A stretch of DNA of 42,056 nt from an uncultured Candidatus Saccharibacteria bacterium (GTDB lineage: Bacteria > Patescibacteriota > Minisyncoccia > UBA6257 > 02-FULL-45-10c): NCBI GenBank assembly GCA_964355085.1, contig CAYHBW010000003.1, positions 1 through 42,056 on the forward strand, in the 5' to 3' direction. This document shows positions 21,346 to 23,711 of this stretch, one piece after another; position 1 is the first letter of the stretch, and each line of letters opens with the position of its first letter. The notes under the pieces are model-generated. The model saw only the letters and a program-made list of their open reading frames with translations, ran no database searches and was not told the DNA's origin. Made by a program: the position numbers and the translations under genes.

Positions 21346-21490
21346 AATCTAAAACTCGGCTTCTGCCGAGTTTTTTTATTTTTTGACTGCCGAGTATTTG
21401 ATAGGTGGGAATTCTAATTATTGACATTTCTTTAATAAAAACTTATTCTATGCATAGTTTATCTTTGAAATTTTGAATAATGGAGGAGTA

Positions 21491-22546
21491 ATGAAGGGAC
21501 TTAAGCTACGCTCTCTTTCGGGAGAATTATGCAAAGTGGGTTCAAAATATGCCAAAAACCCGCTAGATACTATCAACGATATAGAAAAGAAACTTAGCCC
21601 ATGGGATCATTACATCTTGGAACGCTTCGGTGAAAACTTTTCATTTTTAAAAGAGTATTATAAATTACCGATTCGGATATTTTCTGAATTTTCTTTTGAA
21701 GAATTATGTAAGCTCCACCACTCATCCATACTTATGATGGATCAGTCCGTTAATGAGATTTTTGAAAGAGATGCGCGCTATGAAATAATGCGGAAAATTC
21801 AGAGTTCCATGTGGAGATGGGGCATGAATAAAGGGACTTGGAATCAAGCAGTTGATGCGTATGATAATATCCGCAGATTTTCTTTCATAGAAAACCCTGA
21901 TTTTGAAATCCGACTGGATTACTCCACTCATTTCAATGAATTCGGATACTCCAAATATAGCCGGACATACATTGATGGGGTGTTCGCTTATCTCGTTTAC
22001 TACAAAAGAAGGCACGTGATGACAATCGGCTTCTCAATTATGGAAAAAAGGAGTCTATTGATCCAACAAGTCCAGTCAGTTAATCGCACTGGCAACCGGT
22101 ATTTATACAAACTTCCGAATAATCGTATTGAATTTGTAATCGGTCTTTTTCGTAAAAATTTCCCCGGTTATCAGCTTTACGTTATTGATGGAAATTGTCT
22201 TGTGGAAAAAACGATCTCTCATTACAAGCGAGCCCTTAACATGGCGATGGAACGCTGCAGAAACTATCGAGATCAAATTAAAAATCCTGCATGCAAGTCA
22301 AAAAACATTACTGAACGCTGGCTGAGAGAAAGCGAACAAGAATGCGAAGCATTGGAAGCAAAAATCGTGCATCTCAAGGCAGACAAATCGCGGCTTGCTT
22401 TGTTTTATGGCGATACCGGACGCTTCTTGCTTAATCCCTTAACCCTAAGTGTCAACGGCCTGATTCATCATCAGGTGCATTATCGGCCGCAGTTTGGTTT
22501 AAAAAGAAAAACTCATCACAGCCGCCTCTGGAATTTATTTTCCTAA
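21491..22546 (+). CDS. Hypothetical protein (AT-rich, accessory)
   Basis: Long ORF, TTGACA-17-TATTCT promoter, GGAGG SD. Confidence 0.8.
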   Translation: MKGLKLRSLSGELCKVGSKYAKNPLDTINDIEKKLSPWDHYILERFGENFSFLKEYYKLPIRIFSEFSFEELCKLHHSSILMMDQSVNEIFERDARYEIMRKIQSSMWRWGMNKGTWNQAVDAYDNIRRFSFIENPDFEIRLDYSTHFNEFGYSKYSRTYIDGVFAYLVYYKRRHVMTIGFSIMEKRSLLIQQVQSVNRTGNRYLYKLPNNRIEFVIGLFRKNFPGYQLYVIDGNCLVEKTISHYKRALNMAMERCRNYRDQIKNPACKSKNITERWLRESEQECEALEAKIVHLKADKSRLALFYGDTGRFLLNPLTLSVNGLIHHQVHYRPQFGLKRKTHHSRLWNLFS

Positions 22547-22584
22547 GGCGGCTTTTATTTATTTACACTTAACTTGCCGAAGTG

Positions 22585-22655
22585 TTCCGGGACAGGGATT
22601 CGAACCCCAATTCTGCGCTCCAGAGGCGCATGTCCTACCATTAGACGATCCCGGA
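22585..22655 (-). tRNA. tRNA-Gln(CTG)
   Basis: TCCGGGA/TCCCGGA acceptor, D-loop TAATGGTAG, TGCGC-CT-CTG-GA-GCGCA anticodon arm, GGTTCGAATCC; CCA not encoded. Confidence 0.92.
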
Positions 22656-22895
22656 ATATTTCATCTTGACTAGAAGAGCCCGCTTTCCCTTGGCGCTTTT
22701 ATAGAACTTTTCAATCTTAAAAGCTTCATATACATTCTCATAATTTTCGCTGTAAATCAACGCCAGCGGCCTCCTATTTTTTGTAGATAAAACTTTTCCT
22801 GAATTATGCTTTTCAATTCTGTCAGTCAAATATTTTGTGCAACCGACATATAAATTGCCATCTTTTAAACTTTTTAAAACATATACACACTGCAT
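22641..22895 (-). CDS. Minimal GIY-YIG endonuclease overlapping the tRNA-Gln 5' end
   Basis: VYVLKS..DGNLYVG.T...RIEKHNSG..STK.RRP..LIYSE..A..E...K. Confidence 0.92.
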   Translation of the reverse strand: MQCVYVLKSLKDGNLYVGCTKYLTDRIEKHNSGKVLSTKNRRPLALIYSENYENVYEAFKIEKFYKSAKGKRALLVKMKYSGIV

Positions 22896-22925
22896 ACAAT
22901 GATATGTTATTTTGTCCTAACAGTA

Positions 22926-23013
22926 GCCTCGCCCATAGGCTACGGCCGAGGGCCTCGCCCATAGGTCGACTGTGATTCCTACCATTAGCCTCGCCCATAG
23001 GCTACGGCCGAGG
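22926..23013. repeat. 26-bp palindromic repeat GCCTCGCCCATAGGCTACGGCCGAGG (2 full copies + 1 partial)
   Basis: Copies at 22926-22951, 22952-22965 (partial) and 22988-23013. Confidence 0.9.
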
Positions 23014-23029
23014 GACGATCCCGGAATAT
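22977..23029 (-). pseudogene. Duplicated 5' fragment of tRNA-Gln interrupted by the 26-bp palindrome
   Basis: ATATTCCGGGATCGTC[26 bp]TAATGGTAGGA; identical to 22633-22659 once the insert is removed. Confidence 0.85.
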
Positions 23030-23078
23030 GAACCTTCTGAAGATATTCTAAAATAGTTTATGATATAATTCAAATACA

Positions 23079-23711
23079 ATGAAACAATTTATACTTCCGG
23101 AACTTCCGTACGCTCTTGATGCATTGGCCCCGCATCTTTCAAAAGAAGCGCTTGAGTATCACTATGGCAAGCATCATGCCGCTTATATAAACAATCTAAA
23201 TAAGCTGATAACCGGAACTGATTATGAAAACATGCCCATTGAAGAAATCGTAAAGCGAGCCGATGCGGCCGGACTTTTCAATAACGCCGCGCAGGCTTAT
23301 AATCATACTTTTTATTGGCATTGCATGAAGCCGAACTCCGGCGCGGTTGAACCGGTTCCCGGAAATCAGATCGCATCGGCGATCGGCGATTCTTTCGGAT
23401 CATTGGAGAAATTCAAGGAAGAATTCACTAAAACCGGACTCACGCATTTCGGAAGCGGGTGGGCCTGGCTTCTCATGAATAAATCCGGAAAGCTGGAGAT
23501 CAAAGGAATGCATGACGCTGATACGCCGATTAAGGACGGAGATAGGCCGTTACTGGCGCTGGATGTTTGGGAGCATGCTTATTATATAGACTACCGGAAT
23601 GCCAGAGCGGATTACATAAGCGCGTTCTGGAAGCTGATCAATTGGGAATTTGCCGAAAAGCAGCTTTTAAAAGACAAATCCGATACGTTGATGACCGCAT
23701 CCGCGCAGTAG
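23079..23711 (+). CDS. sodB: Fe/Mn superoxide dismutase
   Basis: LPELPY..DALAP, HYGKHH, NNAAQAYNH, FGSGWAW, DVWEHAYY. Confidence 0.95.
   Translation: MKQFILPELPYALDALAPHLSKEALEYHYGKHHAAYINNLNKLITGTDYENMPIEEIVKRADAAGLFNNAAQAYNHTFYWHCMKPNSGAVEPVPGNQIASAIGDSFGSLEKFKEEFTKTGLTHFGSGWAWLLMNKSGKLEIKGMHDADTPIKDGDRPLLALDVWEHAYYIDYRNARADYISAFWKLINWEFAEKQLLKDKSDTLMTASAQ

What the first reader, a model, noticed from the sequence alone, without database searches (positions are those of the whole stretch)
22585..23029. tRNA-targeted GIY-YIG module: nuclease fused to the tRNA-Gln 5' end, with duplicated tRNA fragments carrying palindrome insertions
Order on the minus strand: tRNA 5' copy ATATTCCGGGATCGTC | 26-bp palindrome | TAATGGTAGGA; a partial plus a full palindrome followed by a degenerate D-loop copy TACTGTTAGGACA; an 84-aa GIY-YIG ORF; then the intact tRNA-Gln. 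The last codons (YSGIV*) are encoded by the tRNA itself, and the TAA stop is the D-loop sequence at exactly the position where the palindrome is inserted in the upstream copy. Known: GIY-YIG nucleases act as homing endonucleases, and tRNA duplication marks integration sites. Inference: a minimal selfish element with no integrase or transposase, in which the nuclease recognises the tRNA D-arm/palindrome junction, has inserted repeatedly, and restores the tRNA.
Basis: partly seen in the sequence, partly recalled or inferred. Interest (0 to 1): 0.8.

Follow-up and report, generated by a model that had tools for sequence, protein, structure and literature searches.

The report
Tiny nuclease cassette lodged in tRNA gene
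A very small nuclease gene sits inside the front end of a glutamine tRNA gene, between an intact tRNA and a displaced, hairpin-interrupted copy of the tRNA's first bases, and the same layout recurs in many ultra-small bacteria, which points to a little-known kind of selfish DNA that lives in tRNA genes without breaking them.

Summary
On the minus strand lie, in order: a 16-nt copy of the tRNA-Gln(CUG) start, a 26-nt near-palindrome (PAL), a D-loop copy, a half PAL, a second PAL, a second degenerate D-loop copy, an 84-aa GIY-YIG ORF, and the intact tRNA, which the ORF overlaps by 15 nt. Contigs from three independent studies tile it without differences.

It is not a one-off. The closest relatives of this ORF in other Patescibacteria nearly all abut a tRNA-Gln or tRNA-Glu gene, and 23 of 25 such loci carry PAL arms upstream. 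Other clades of the same small nuclease sit before tmRNA, tRNA-Ser or RNase P RNA genes. Syntenic tRNA-Gln(CUG) sites in two other genera are empty. The protein is a bare Slx1/UPF0213-type catalytic domain.

Best reading (0.5): a compact mobile cassette that lives in the 5' end of stable-RNA genes, is probably transcribed from the tRNA promoter, and spreads by nuclease-triggered recombination. Mobility is supported; the mechanism is inferred. No description was found in the searchable literature.

The parts
22584..22655 (-). Intact tRNA-Gln (anticodon CUG), the only CUG isoacceptor gene in the genome
   Evidence: ARAGORN; Rfam RF00005, 57.4 bits
22641..22895 (-). 84-aa GIY-YIG ORF (Slx1/UPF0213-type catalytic domain only). 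Its last 15 nt, stop included, are tRNA nt 1-15
   Evidence: ORF list. Pfam PF01541, E 1.3e-13. PDB profile hits to UPF0213 proteins BH0048 (5e-7) and EF2693 (1.2e-6). AlphaFold2 pLDDT 92.5. Foldseek best matches are UPF0213 and Slx1
22914..22925 (-). Second, degenerate copy of tRNA nt 13-24 (TACTGTTAGGAC; 2 differences from the tRNA)
   Evidence: family D3
22926..22951 (-). PAL copy 2: 26-nt near-palindrome CCTCGGCCGTAGCCTATGGGCGAGGC
   Evidence: exact match; 0 in 100 shuffles. DNA fold -8.4 kcal/mol, z -3.0
22952..22965 (-). Half PAL (the 3' arm only, CCTATGGGCGAGGC)
   Evidence: family D2
22966..22976 (-). 11-nt linker ATCACAGTCGA of unknown origin. It is identical in the C21 paralogous module
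22977..22987 (-). First copy of tRNA nt 13-23 (TAATGGTAGGA), identical to the tRNA
   Evidence: family D3
22988..23013 (-). PAL copy 1, inserted between the copies of tRNA nt 12 and nt 13
23014..23029 (-). Displaced copy of 4 leader nt plus tRNA nt 1-12 (ATATTCCGGGATCGTC), identical to the functional gene
   Evidence: family D4, 100% identity
23045..23073 (-). Promoter-like site TTGAAT-17-TAGAAT, ending 15 nt before the displaced fragment. It is a candidate for the original tRNA promoter, now driving module, ORF and tRNA
   Evidence: Consensus scan. Weak: 3 sites found against 2.0 expected in shuffles. No promoter-like site was found on this strand inside the ORF

Best explanation
The locus is one member of a widespread family of very small mobile cassettes that live in the 5' end of stable-RNA genes.

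A cassette has three parts:
1. A roughly 80-aa Slx1/UPF0213-type GIY-YIG nuclease ORF placed directly in front of an intact tRNA, often running into it.
2. A displaced copy of the gene's first 12-45 nt, left just downstream of the gene's original promoter.
3. One or more GC-rich hairpins that interrupt this displaced copy at the D-stem/D-loop junction. Here the hairpin is the 26-nt PAL.

Because the 5' segment is duplicated, the essential tRNA stays whole.

Inferred steps:
- The tRNA promoter transcribes fragment, hairpin, ORF and tRNA as one RNA, from which RNase P releases the tRNA.
- The cassette spreads by nuclease-triggered recombination. A break or nick in a naive tRNA gene is repaired from a cassette-bearing copy. 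The displaced fragment acts as the left homology arm and the tRNA body as the right arm.
- The hairpin is the nuclease's cognate cis element, or else a mark that makes the displaced copy uncleavable.
- PAL-only modules, such as the one at this genome's second tRNA-Gln gene, are non-autonomous or decayed derivatives.

What is shown: the anatomy, its recurrence, target-specific nuclease clades, and filled versus empty sites. What is inferred: co-transcription, the cleavage site, the recombination route and the role of the hairpin.

Recurrence among relatives:
- Of 80 relatives of the ORF from genome contigs, 35 have a same-strand tRNA starting no more than 150 nt after the stop: Gln 19, Glu 6, Ser 7, and Phe, Asn, Cys 1 each. 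The gap is commonly -23 to +14 nt.
- 21 of the 80 have a copy (at most 1 mismatch) of tRNA nt 1-12 within 450 nt upstream. Several of the misses are diverged or inverted copies.
- 23 of the 25 Gln/Glu-adjacent ORFs carry PAL arms within 260 nt upstream.

Target-specific clades:
- A 23-row clade with 100/99 support precedes tmRNA genes in 22 of 23 loci; the one miss is a truncated locus.
- One ORF ends at the start of an RNase P RNA gene.
- In all, 58 of 80 ORFs have a tRNA, tmRNA or RNase P RNA gene starting just downstream.
- More distant clades (tRNA-Ser, Phe, Asn, Cys) show the same layout with other hairpins.
- The same genome holds a second case: fragment plus a different hairpin, an 80-aa GIY-YIG ORF, a 5-nt gap, then tRNA-Leu(CAA).

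Filled versus empty sites:
- G000 and congener G017 are filled at the syntenic tRNA-Gln(CUG) site.
- G003 and G013, with the same neighbouring genes, are empty.
- The 26-mer was found in 4 of 301 genomes of the order.

Signs of movement:
- The module has been copied to the paralogous tRNA-Gln(UUG) gene at 97% identity.
- Tandem or stacked elements occur (L073, L081, L088).
- Full-length tRNA copies carry PAL in both the D-loop and the T-loop beside an intact copy (L101, L070).
- Near-identical PAL arms occur in several Patescibacteria classes while the ORFs are only 43-67% identical.

Upstream fragments track the host tRNA:
- G017's fragment carries G017's own acceptor-stem substitution.
- L065's fragment carries that lineage's own D-stem.

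Protein:
- Confident model. The best structural matches are UPF0213 and the Slx1 nuclease domain (TM 0.62-0.68, rmsd from 1.6 A), ahead of I-TevI (TM 0.37-0.52).
- Y5, Y16, G18, R26, H30 and E62 are invariant in 40 sequences.

Promoter:
- A promoter-like site lies just upstream of the displaced fragment.
Against: - No cleavage or mobility has been observed.
- The protein has no DNA-binding domain, so how it would find a target is open.
- The functional tRNA in a cassette-bearing genome still holds the presumed target, so self-cleavage is unexplained.
- The C21 module has no ORF, and its 49-nt spacer shows no convincing trace of one.
- Eight of the 32 PAL-in-fragment loci have only 38-125 nt between PAL and the tRNA, with no ORF.
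- 91 of 130 PAL-family instances were not classed as lying beside a tRNA. Some are truncated tRNA contexts, but many are plain intergenic sites. PAL may therefore be an independent repeat.
- PAL is flanked by C on both sides in 36-38 of 38 contexts, and TC precedes it in only 19 of 38. Target choice is therefore loose.
- tmRNA-linked loci show no 12-nt copy of the tmRNA start (0 of 23).
- G016's cassette has an uninterrupted upstream fragment that differs from the resident tRNA.
- The basal split of the nuclease tree is weak (57/96).
- The promoter call is a weak consensus match.
- PAL was not found in IMG/VR viral contigs, so no vector is known.
- Dunin-Horkawicz et al. 2006 (PMC1564403, section 11 read) report bacterial Slx1-like domains fused to, or encoded beside, methyltransferases, one of them a TrmH-like tRNA methyltransferase. 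A housekeeping, RNA-related role for such proteins is therefore conceivable.
Confidence: 0.5

Rival explanations
1. Two unrelated things share a safe harbour. PAL is an independent REP- or MITE-like hairpin, mobilised by some other enzyme or by repair errors. It survives wherever insertion is harmless, including dead tRNA fragments. The small GIY-YIG genes are separate residents of tRNA leaders, either selfish or domesticated. The nuclease neither recognises nor moves PAL.
For: - 91 of 130 PAL-family instances were not classed as tRNA-linked, and GIY-YIG lies within -700 to +800 nt of only 40 of 130.
- PAL occurs without the ORF at C21 and C18 in this genome and in G225 and G292.
- The genome encodes two Y1 (IS200/RAYT-type) transposases.
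- Other hairpin families occupy the same kind of fragment.
- PAL also sits in fragments of tRNA-Ile and of a Thr-like tRNA with no ORF.
Against: - tRNA-Gln/Glu 5' fragments are a minute share of any genome, yet they hold at least 31 of 130 PAL-family instances, at one fixed position.
- 23 of 25 Gln/Glu-adjacent ORFs have PAL.
- Hairpin family changes together with nuclease clade and target.
- The hairpins flanking the two Y1 transposase genes are unrelated to PAL.
- PAL arms stay invariant where the ORFs have diverged to about 50% identity. That fits a sequence-specific partner travelling with PAL.
Confidence: 0.25
2. The arrangement is a structured RNA leader rather than mobile DNA. The tRNA-like fragment plus a stable hairpin would form a 5' UTR that controls the stability, processing or translation of a nuclease mRNA co-transcribed with the tRNA. 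The nuclease would be a housekeeping factor linked to stable-RNA metabolism.
For: - The ORFs sit in front of tRNA, tmRNA and RNase P RNA genes in 58 of 80 loci.
- A promoter-like site lies upstream of the fragment.
- Most sequence variants of PAL keep G.U-compatible pairing on the sense strand: the T/C variation at position 17 and the C18 copy.
- Dunin-Horkawicz 2006 (section 11 read) notes fusions of bacterial Slx1-like domains with a TrmH-like tRNA methyltransferase.
Against: - The cassette is absent from syntenic sites in related genera.
- Its distribution is patchy: 4 of 301 genomes of the order hold PAL.
- Inverted PAL copies occur in the same fragments, as do tandem stacks and PAL-riddled full-length tRNA pseudogenes. 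None of this is expected of a conserved regulatory leader.
- No Rfam family matches the region apart from the tRNA.
- The arms are invariant, so there is no covariation to support an RNA structure.
Confidence: 0.12
3. The duplication is an assembly artefact: repeats collapsed or chimeric joins in a metagenome-assembled genome.
For: - The genome is a 42-contig MAG.
- Two Logan contigs show a join from 22659 to 22914 that skips the ORF.
- No single Logan contig spans the whole stretch.
Against: - Overlapping contigs from four runs of three studies cover 22583-23300 with zero differences.
- The same architecture is assembled independently in dozens of unrelated MAGs.
- The skipping join carries exactly the 3 differences that distinguish the C21 paralogue over 22914-22968. 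It is best read as the paralogue or a repeat-induced chimera.
Confidence: 0.02

Closest known systems
Free-standing GIY-YIG homing endonucleases of T4-like phages, above all SegB in the T4 tRNA gene cluster
   Same: - A GIY-YIG nuclease gene sits among tRNA genes, not inside an intron.
- It is inherited preferentially through cleavage of the endonuclease-less allele followed by repair.
- The abstract of a 2026 paper links SegB to segmental amplification of a locus involving tRNA-Tyr.

Sources: PMC2330249 and PMC13096335. For both, only the search listing and the start of the abstract were seen.
   Different: - Seg proteins are recalled to be about 200 aa or more, with DNA-binding modules. This protein is 84 aa, a catalytic domain only, and structurally nearer to Slx1/UPF0213 than to I-TevI.
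- Here the element lies inside the tRNA gene's 5' end, with a displaced fragment and a conserved hairpin.
- The host is a bacterial chromosome, not a phage. PAL is absent from IMG/VR.
Mobile GIY-YIG ORF at the end of mitochondrial atp6 in Allomyces, which carries a replacement gene end (recalled from memory; paper not retrieved)
   Same: An endonuclease ORF invades an essential gene at one end. The gene stays whole because the terminal segment is duplicated, and the displaced original piece is left beside it.
   Different: - The setting is organellar and the target is a protein gene, with the ORF inserted in frame at the 3' end.
- Here the target is the 5' end of an RNA gene.
- Here the duplicated segment matches the host's own tRNA in most loci.
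- Here a hairpin interrupts the displaced copy.
REP/RAYT and IS200/IS605-derived palindromic elements; Rickettsia palindromic elements; mobile GC clusters of yeast mitochondria (all recalled)
   Same: These are short GC-rich hairpin repeats present in a few to many copies. They insert at short target motifs and are tolerated in non-essential sequence. PAL likewise shows nested and tandem copies.
   Different: - No Y1 transposase with matching hairpins was found.
- PAL has only 1-5 copies per genome in those examined.
- PAL is strongly concentrated at one position of tRNA-Gln/Glu fragments, next to one nuclease clade.
tRNA-gene integration of genomic islands and prophages by tyrosine integrases
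   Same: A direct repeat of part of a tRNA gene flanks inserted DNA, and the tRNA is restored.
   Different: - The repeat interval is 371 nt and holds only the 84-aa ORF, with no integrase.
- The duplicated part is the 5' end up to the D-arm. The usual 3' portion is recalled from memory.
- The extent of the repeat varies between loci, reaching nt 21-45.
Slx1 structure-specific endonuclease and bacterial UPF0213 (YhbQ-type) proteins
   Same: - Sequence and predicted fold match.
- Slx1 cuts branched DNA: the titles of PDB entries 7cq4 and 6seh name 5' flap and branched substrates.
   Different: - There is no RING/zinc-finger domain and no Slx4 partner.
- Whether this protein cuts hairpins, cruciforms or tRNA-gene DNA is unknown.
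- No function is established for UPF0213 proteins in the papers searched.

Membership tests
GIY-YIG nuclease superfamily (Pfam PF01541) | Profile match above the curated cut-off | tested here: met
   E 1.3e-13, 51.4 bits against a cut-off of 22.6; residues 2-71 match profile positions 2-74 of 78
GIY-YIG nuclease superfamily (Pfam PF01541) | Conserved motif residues: the two Tyr-containing motifs, Arg, and Glu (list recalled from memory) | tested here: met
   Y5, Y16, G18, R26, H30 and E62 are invariant in 40 aligned relatives. Their assignment to catalytic roles is by analogy and was not tested
GIY-YIG nuclease superfamily (Pfam PF01541) | Nuclease activity | not testable with these tools
   Needs a biochemical assay
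Bacterial Slx1-like / UPF0213 subfamily | Closest sequence and fold relatives are UPF0213 and Slx1, rather than intron-type GIY-YIG enzymes | tested here: met
   PDB profile search: BH0048 5e-7, EF2693 1.2e-6. Foldseek: 1zg2 E 3.2e-4; Slx1 chains TM 0.62-0.68; I-TevI TM 0.37-0.52
Homing endonuclease gene (free-standing) | Presence/absence polymorphism at one genomic site among relatives | tested here: met
   Filled in G000 and G017. Empty at syntenic tRNA-Gln(CUG) sites in G003 and G013, which have the same neighbouring genes. This is between genera; within-population polymorphism is not shown
Homing endonuclease gene (free-standing) | A DNA-binding module that reads a long target site | tested here: not met
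   84 aa. The model is a single GIY-YIG domain (E2-9, E15-20, H23-32, H36-41, E44-52, H55-66, H68-81) with nothing beyond it
Homing endonuclease gene (free-standing) | Site-specific cleavage of the endonuclease-less allele, followed by copying of the gene into it | not testable with these tools
   Needs cleavage mapping and a homing assay
Integrase-mediated tRNA-gene island | A site-specific recombinase gene between the repeated tRNA segments | tested here: not met
   Between 22655 and 23014 the longest ORF is the 84-aa GIY-YIG ORF
REP/RAYT or IS200/IS605 palindrome-associated element | A Y1 transposase in the genome whose flanking hairpins match the repeat | tested here: not met
   Two Y1_Tnp genes were found (C9, C13). 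Their flanking hairpins (CCCCGCA..TGCGGGG and TTAAGGAC..GTCCTTAA) are unrelated to PAL
Known RNA families (Rfam 15) | Covariance-model match to the fragment and hairpin module | tested here: not met
   The E-value scan of 22400-23200 returned the tRNA above its gathering score and four chance-level matches far below theirs, none of them on the module

The most novel reading that the evidence does not exclude
The displaced tRNA fragment and the hairpin together act as a guide. The transcript, or the unwound DNA strand, reads [tRNA nt 1-12]-hairpin-[nt 13-25]. It can pair continuously with the complementary strand of any intact copy of that tRNA gene, with the conserved hairpin protruding as the third arm of a three-way junction at nt 12/13. 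An Slx1-type, structure-specific, domain-minimal nuclease that binds its cognate hairpin would then cut the target exactly there.

Target choice would be set by the flanking sequence and not by the protein. That would explain four things:
- how an 80-aa enzyme is specific;
- why hairpin arms are invariant while the flanks track each host's tRNA;
- why hairpin families change with nuclease clades;
- why PAL-only modules persist.

It would be a nucleic-acid-guided nuclease built on a GIY-YIG fold.
Probability: 0.1. Interest if true: 0.95.

Novelty: new variant of a known kind. Interest (0 to 1): 0.74.

Why it matters
If the reading holds, the smallest known free-standing nuclease cassettes (about 370 nt in all) colonise the most conserved RNA genes of ultra-small bacteria: tRNA, tmRNA and RNase P RNA. 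They do so without harming those genes, by duplicating the first few bases of the gene and borrowing its promoter.

- It gives the large, functionless UPF0213 / bacterial Slx1-like protein family a concrete genomic behaviour that can be tested.
- It explains stray tRNA 5' fragments and GC hairpins in candidate-phyla-radiation (CPR) genomes, which otherwise confuse annotation.
- It raises a testable question: how does a catalytic domain with no DNA-binding module find a specific site? One answer would be a hairpin-guided, programmable nuclease.
- It also offers markers for gene flow between CPR lineages.

Tried and rejected
Calls that failed or were repeated:
It was repeated on the plus strand.
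- the script crashed on the last, weak GIY-YIG hit after printing ten loci.
- a 12-mer scan of all tRNAs against the genome was too noisy and timed out. It was replaced by blastn-short. That run missed the Gln fragments, which fall below its 15-nt limit, but it showed other tRNA fragment repeats.
- the local HMM step failed because its input file was missing, so GIY-YIG detection in that call is void. The tRNA and fragment part of the call is valid.

Searches that found nothing:
- Rfam E-value scan of the region: only the tRNA.
- NCBIfam: no hit near any cut-off.
- PAL in IMG/VR viral contigs: 0.
- tmRNA-linked loci were searched for a 12-nt copy of the tmRNA start: 0 of 23. Only shorter TTTAGGGG-type repeats were seen by eye, in L097.

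Ideas tested and not supported:
- A Y1 transposase as the mobiliser of PAL: two such genes are present, but with different hairpins.
- The C21 spacer as a decayed ORF: a global alignment gave only scattered matches.
- The L049 spacer as a decayed ORF: a 9-nt match to the 3' end of the L063 ORF is suggestive but not convincing.
- Covariation in PAL: the arms are invariant, so there is no signal.

Ambiguous read evidence:
- Logan contigs show a join that skips the ORF (22659 to 22914). I considered it as an empty allele. I rejected that reading because the contigs carry the C21-specific differences, and a shared repeat of about 55 nt can produce chimeric contigs.

Literature (seven searches):
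- No paper was found that describes small GIY-YIG genes at tRNA or tmRNA 5' ends with displaced fragments or this palindrome.
- Four PAL substrings gave 0 papers.
- Supplementary files and non-open papers were not searchable.

Not run: a homodimer prediction, a metagenome-wide scan and the 1.84-billion-protein search.
Full report
**What is there**

On the minus strand of the window, ARAGORN finds tRNA-Gln(CUG) at 22584-22655. Rfam confirms it. An 84-aa ORF at 22641-22895 matches Pfam GIY-YIG at E 1.3e-13. It runs 15 nt into the tRNA, and its TAA stop is tRNA nt 13-15.

Upstream of the ORF the sequence reads as follows:
- ATATTCCGGGATCGTC: four leader bases plus tRNA nt 1-12, identical to the gene;
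- a 26-nt near-palindrome, here called PAL;
- TAATGGTAGGA (nt 13-23);
- an 11-nt linker;
- the 3' half of PAL;
- a second full PAL;
- TACTGTTAGGAC, a two-mismatch copy of nt 13-24.

The 26-mer is absent from 100 shuffles of the window. Folded as DNA it gives -8.4 kcal/mol with z -3.0. A promoter-like site (TTGAAT-17-TAGAAT) ends 15 nt before the displaced fragment, although the scan is weak.

Contigs from four public runs of three studies overlap across 22583-23300 without a single difference. The structure is therefore not an assembly artefact of this MAG, although no single contig spans all of it.

**The genome**

The window lies in an 807-kb, 42-contig genome estimated at 96% complete. It has 44 tRNA genes, with one CUG and one UUG glutamine tRNA.

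The second gene, tRNA-Gln(UUG) on contig C21, is preceded by the same 113-nt module at 97% identity. There is no nuclease ORF: 49 nt of AT-rich spacer separate the module from the leader and tRNA. A third, diverged PAL lies on C18, away from any tRNA.

The genome holds about nine intact small GIY-YIG paralogues. One of them, on C9, ends 5 nt before tRNA-Leu(CAA). It is preceded by a copy of that tRNA's leader and first seven bases, a different GC hairpin and five tandem repeats of about 23 nt. Another, on C11, starts 106 nt after a tRNA-Thr.

tRNA genes plus 110 nt on either side cover about 1.6% of the genome. By my own binomial arithmetic, three of nine ORFs falling that close has a chance of roughly 3e-4.

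**Relatives at the same site**

A congener (G017) has the syntenic arrangement:
- fragment, the identical 26-mer, and then tRNA nt 13-31;
- an 86-aa orthologue, 68% identical in protein and 71% in DNA;
- tRNA-Gln(CUG).

Its displaced fragment carries G017's own acceptor-stem base. It has therefore either co-evolved with the tRNA or arisen separately.

Two other genera of the family (G003, G013) have the same neighbouring genes, namely the 185-aa protein and, in G003, fmt. Their tRNA-Gln(CUG) has neither fragment nor PAL nor ORF in front of it. Across 301 genomes sampled from the order, the 26-mer (up to 3 mismatches) occurs in four.

**The wider family**

An alignment of six PAL-linked ORFs recovered 157 relatives in the species-representative genome collection. 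The best 80 were analysed.

tRNA-linked loci:
- 35 have a same-strand tRNA beginning no more than 150 nt after the stop: Gln 19, Glu 6, Ser 7, and Phe, Asn, Cys one each. The gap is usually between -23 and +14.
- 21 have a copy of tRNA nt 1-12, with at most one mismatch, within 450 nt upstream.
- Inspection of the misses showed more diverged fragments, or PAL inserted in the inverted orientation a few bases earlier.
- Of the 25 ORFs that abut tRNA-Gln or tRNA-Glu, 23 have PAL arms within 260 nt upstream. The other two have a different short hairpin or a long AT-rich palindrome at the same spot.

Other stable-RNA targets:
- Among the 45 ORFs without such a tRNA, ARAGORN finds a tmRNA gene 50-210 nt downstream in 16.
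- Rfam finds tmRNA genes in 6 more, and in one locus an RNase P RNA gene that starts at the ORF's stop.
- Hence 58 of 80 ORFs directly precede a stable-RNA gene. Several of the rest directly follow one.

Tree of the nuclease:
- The tmRNA-linked ORFs form a 23-row clade with 100/99 support. 22 of the 23 have the tmRNA gene, and the remaining locus is cut at the ORF end.
- A tRNA-Ser group has 98/90 support.
- A Bacteroidota/Ignavibacteriota tRNA-Ser group has 100/97 support.
- The PAL-linked Gln/Glu ORFs all lie in one half of the tree, but the basal split is weak (57/96).

Distant members keep the layout with other hairpins. Target-specific clades of this sort are what a family of site-specific selfish elements would show.

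**PAL itself**

The exact 25-mer core, with three degenerate positions, occurs in 28 stretches of the genome collection. These come from several Patescibacteria classes, plus MAGs labelled Edwardsbacteria, Gammaproteobacteria and Simkania; the labels were not checked.

Pooled with the earlier loci, this gave 130 distinct instances in 121 loci.
- 32 lie in a copy of the 5' end of a tRNA found downstream on the same strand (Gln 26, Glu 5, Ile 1).
- 24 of those 32 have a GIY-YIG ORF in the 186-530 nt between PAL and the tRNA. The other 8 have only 38-125 nt and no ORF.
- 7 lie downstream of an opposite-strand tRNA. Several of these are inverted insertions inside the fragment.
- 91 were unclassified. 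Some are visibly tRNA contexts on truncated contigs, but many are ordinary intergenic sites.

These loci overlap those and are not independent of them.

Other properties:
- PAL is preceded by C in 38 of 38 contexts (TC 19, GC 14) and followed by C in 36 of 38.
- Its arms are invariant, while its centre takes insertions of 1-17 nt, often partial inverted copies of the arm.
- It also occurs in tandem (five copies in L065/L088), nested (L046), in the T-loop of tRNA pseudogenes after GGTTC (L070, L101), and in fragments of tRNA-Ile and of a Thr-like tRNA followed by only 4-30 nt and the intact gene.
- It is absent from IMG/VR.
- The genome's two Y1 transposase genes carry unrelated hairpins.

**The protein**

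With a 40-sequence alignment, AlphaFold2 gives pLDDT 92.5 for a single compact domain.

Foldseek ranks as follows:
- the UPF0213 protein BH0048 first;
- then the nuclease domain of Slx1 (TM 0.62-0.68, rmsd down to 1.6 A);
- then EF2693;
- I-TevI's catalytic domain scores lower (TM 0.37-0.52).

A profile search of PDB sequences finds only the two UPF0213 proteins. Y5, Y16, G18, R26, H30 and E62 are invariant. There is no room for a DNA-binding module.

Slx1 is a structure-specific nuclease of branched DNA, according to the titles of the matched PDB entries.

Dunin-Horkawicz et al. 2006 (PMC1564403; section 11 and three passages read) describe bacterial Slx1-like proteins as uncharacterised. They note fusions or operons with a COG4123 methyltransferase and a TrmH-like tRNA methyltransferase. 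From memory, COG4123 is now regarded as a tRNA m6A37 methyltransferase; I did not verify this.

**Interpretation**

The anatomy, its recurrence in dozens of independent assemblies, the target-specific nuclease clades, the filled and empty syntenic sites and the stacked copies all point one way. This is a family of compact mobile cassettes that occupy the 5' end of stable-RNA genes and keep the gene intact by duplicating its first bases.

Three steps are inferred.

1. The cassette is read from the host gene's promoter, which now lies in front of the displaced fragment.

2. Spread is by nuclease-triggered repair. The displaced fragment supplies homology on the left and the tRNA body on the right, so the cassette can enter any sufficiently similar tRNA gene whatever the neighbouring genes are. 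This would explain:
   - why a fragment always accompanies the ORF;
   - why it usually matches the resident tRNA;
   - why its 3' limit varies (nt 21-45);
   - how PAL alone can be copied into a redundant tRNA copy, as in L101 and L070.

3. The hairpin is either the enzyme's cognate site or the lesion that makes the displaced copy immune.

Open problems:
- the intact tRNA remains a potential target in its own genome;
- PAL-only modules with very short spacers lack a clear origin;
- PAL has many non-tRNA sites;
- tmRNA-linked loci lack long duplications;
- one cassette (G016) has an uninterrupted fragment that differs from the resident tRNA.

The main rival is that PAL and the nuclease are independent tenants of the same safe harbour. 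It is not excluded, and I give it about one chance in four.

**Novelty**

Seven full-text searches found no description of this palindrome, of small GIY-YIG genes at tRNA or tmRNA 5' ends, or of a function for UPF0213 proteins. Subscription papers and supplements were not searchable.

The nearest precedents are:
- T4 SegB (PMC2330249 and PMC13096335; listing and start of abstract only);
- from memory, the Allomyces mitochondrial atp6 endonuclease element with its duplicated gene end;
- from memory, hairpin repeats such as REP, Rickettsia palindromic elements and yeast mitochondrial GC clusters.

The combination here is a domain-minimal Slx1-type nuclease, a conserved hairpin, a duplicated 5' gene segment, and bacterial chromosomal tRNA, tmRNA and RNase P RNA targets. 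It is best called a new variant of the homing-endonuclease kind.

There is an outside chance (about 0.1) that the fragment-hairpin-fragment unit guides a structure-specific nuclease to its target. That would be new in kind.

Noticed in passing
G000 contig C21:8966-9204 (outside the window): The second tRNA-Gln gene (UUG) carries the same 113-nt fragment/PAL module at 97% identity, 49 nt upstream of its leader and tRNA, with no nuclease ORF. A promoter-like TTTTGCTAAAGTAT motif lies directly before the displaced fragment. In relative G004 the same motif lies directly before the real tRNA.
   Followed up: partly
G000 contig C9:18300-19420 (outside the window): tRNA-Leu(CAA) is preceded by a second cassette: a leader-plus-7-nt copy, a CCCGCC..GGCGGG hairpin, five tandem repeats of about 23 nt, and an 80-aa GIY-YIG ORF. 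On the other strand it is followed by an IS200-type Y1 transposase gene with its own CCCCGCA..TGCGGGG hairpins.
   Followed up: partly
L097-L145 (tmRNA-linked loci) and L144: A well-supported clade of the same small nuclease lies just upstream of the tmRNA gene (in the four loci read, L097-L100, a preceding ORF ends just before it). It has repeated TTTAGGGG-type motifs and TCGCCCGA hairpins around it. One relative ends exactly at the start of an RNase P RNA gene.
   Followed up: partly
L059 (MAG labelled Simkania) and L066 (Saccharibacteria): Both carry almost the same Thr-like tRNA 5' sequence with a PAL-interrupted fragment. L059 shows three stacked 5' copies, and its last copy has an insertion of about 200 nt in the anticodon loop, possibly an intron. 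The Simkania label may be a binning error.
   Followed up: no
L131:1529-1761: A group I intron (Rfam 74.5 bits) lies on the opposite strand directly after a small GIY-YIG ORF of this family.
   Followed up: no
G000 contigs C11:10155-10184, C14:3095-3129 and C11:22273-22293: Other tRNA fragment repeats are present in the genome: a 30-nt 3' piece of tRNA-Val(CAC) 1.7 kb downstream of the gene, a 35-nt piece of tRNA-Ile(UAU) 53 nt after the gene, and a 21-nt piece of tRNA-Glu(CUC). These look like ordinary 3'-end integration scars or local duplications.
   Followed up: no
window 22515-22558 and 22619-22633: The hairpin between the tRNA and the convergent 357-aa ORF (arms 22515-22533 and 22540-22558) shares a 15-nt stretch, 87% complementary, with the tRNA's anticodon arm (pairs I1 and I2). 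This may be chance.
   Followed up: no
window 21473-22546 (+): A 357-aa ORF convergent with the tRNA has no Pfam match at E 0.01.
   Followed up: no
window 22659/22914, in Logan contigs of runs X1 and X2: Two contigs join the end of the module directly to a tRNA-Gln start, skipping the ORF. They carry the C21-type differences and are most likely the paralogue or a repeat-induced chimera. A true ORF-less allele at this locus is not excluded.
   Followed up: partly
L029 (G016, same genus): A different GIY-YIG type (89 aa) runs into tRNA-Gln(UUG). Its upstream fragment, TGGGAGATCGTCTAAC, is uninterrupted and has the acceptor sequence of other lineages rather than that of the resident tRNA. This hints at import from another host.
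   Followed up: partly
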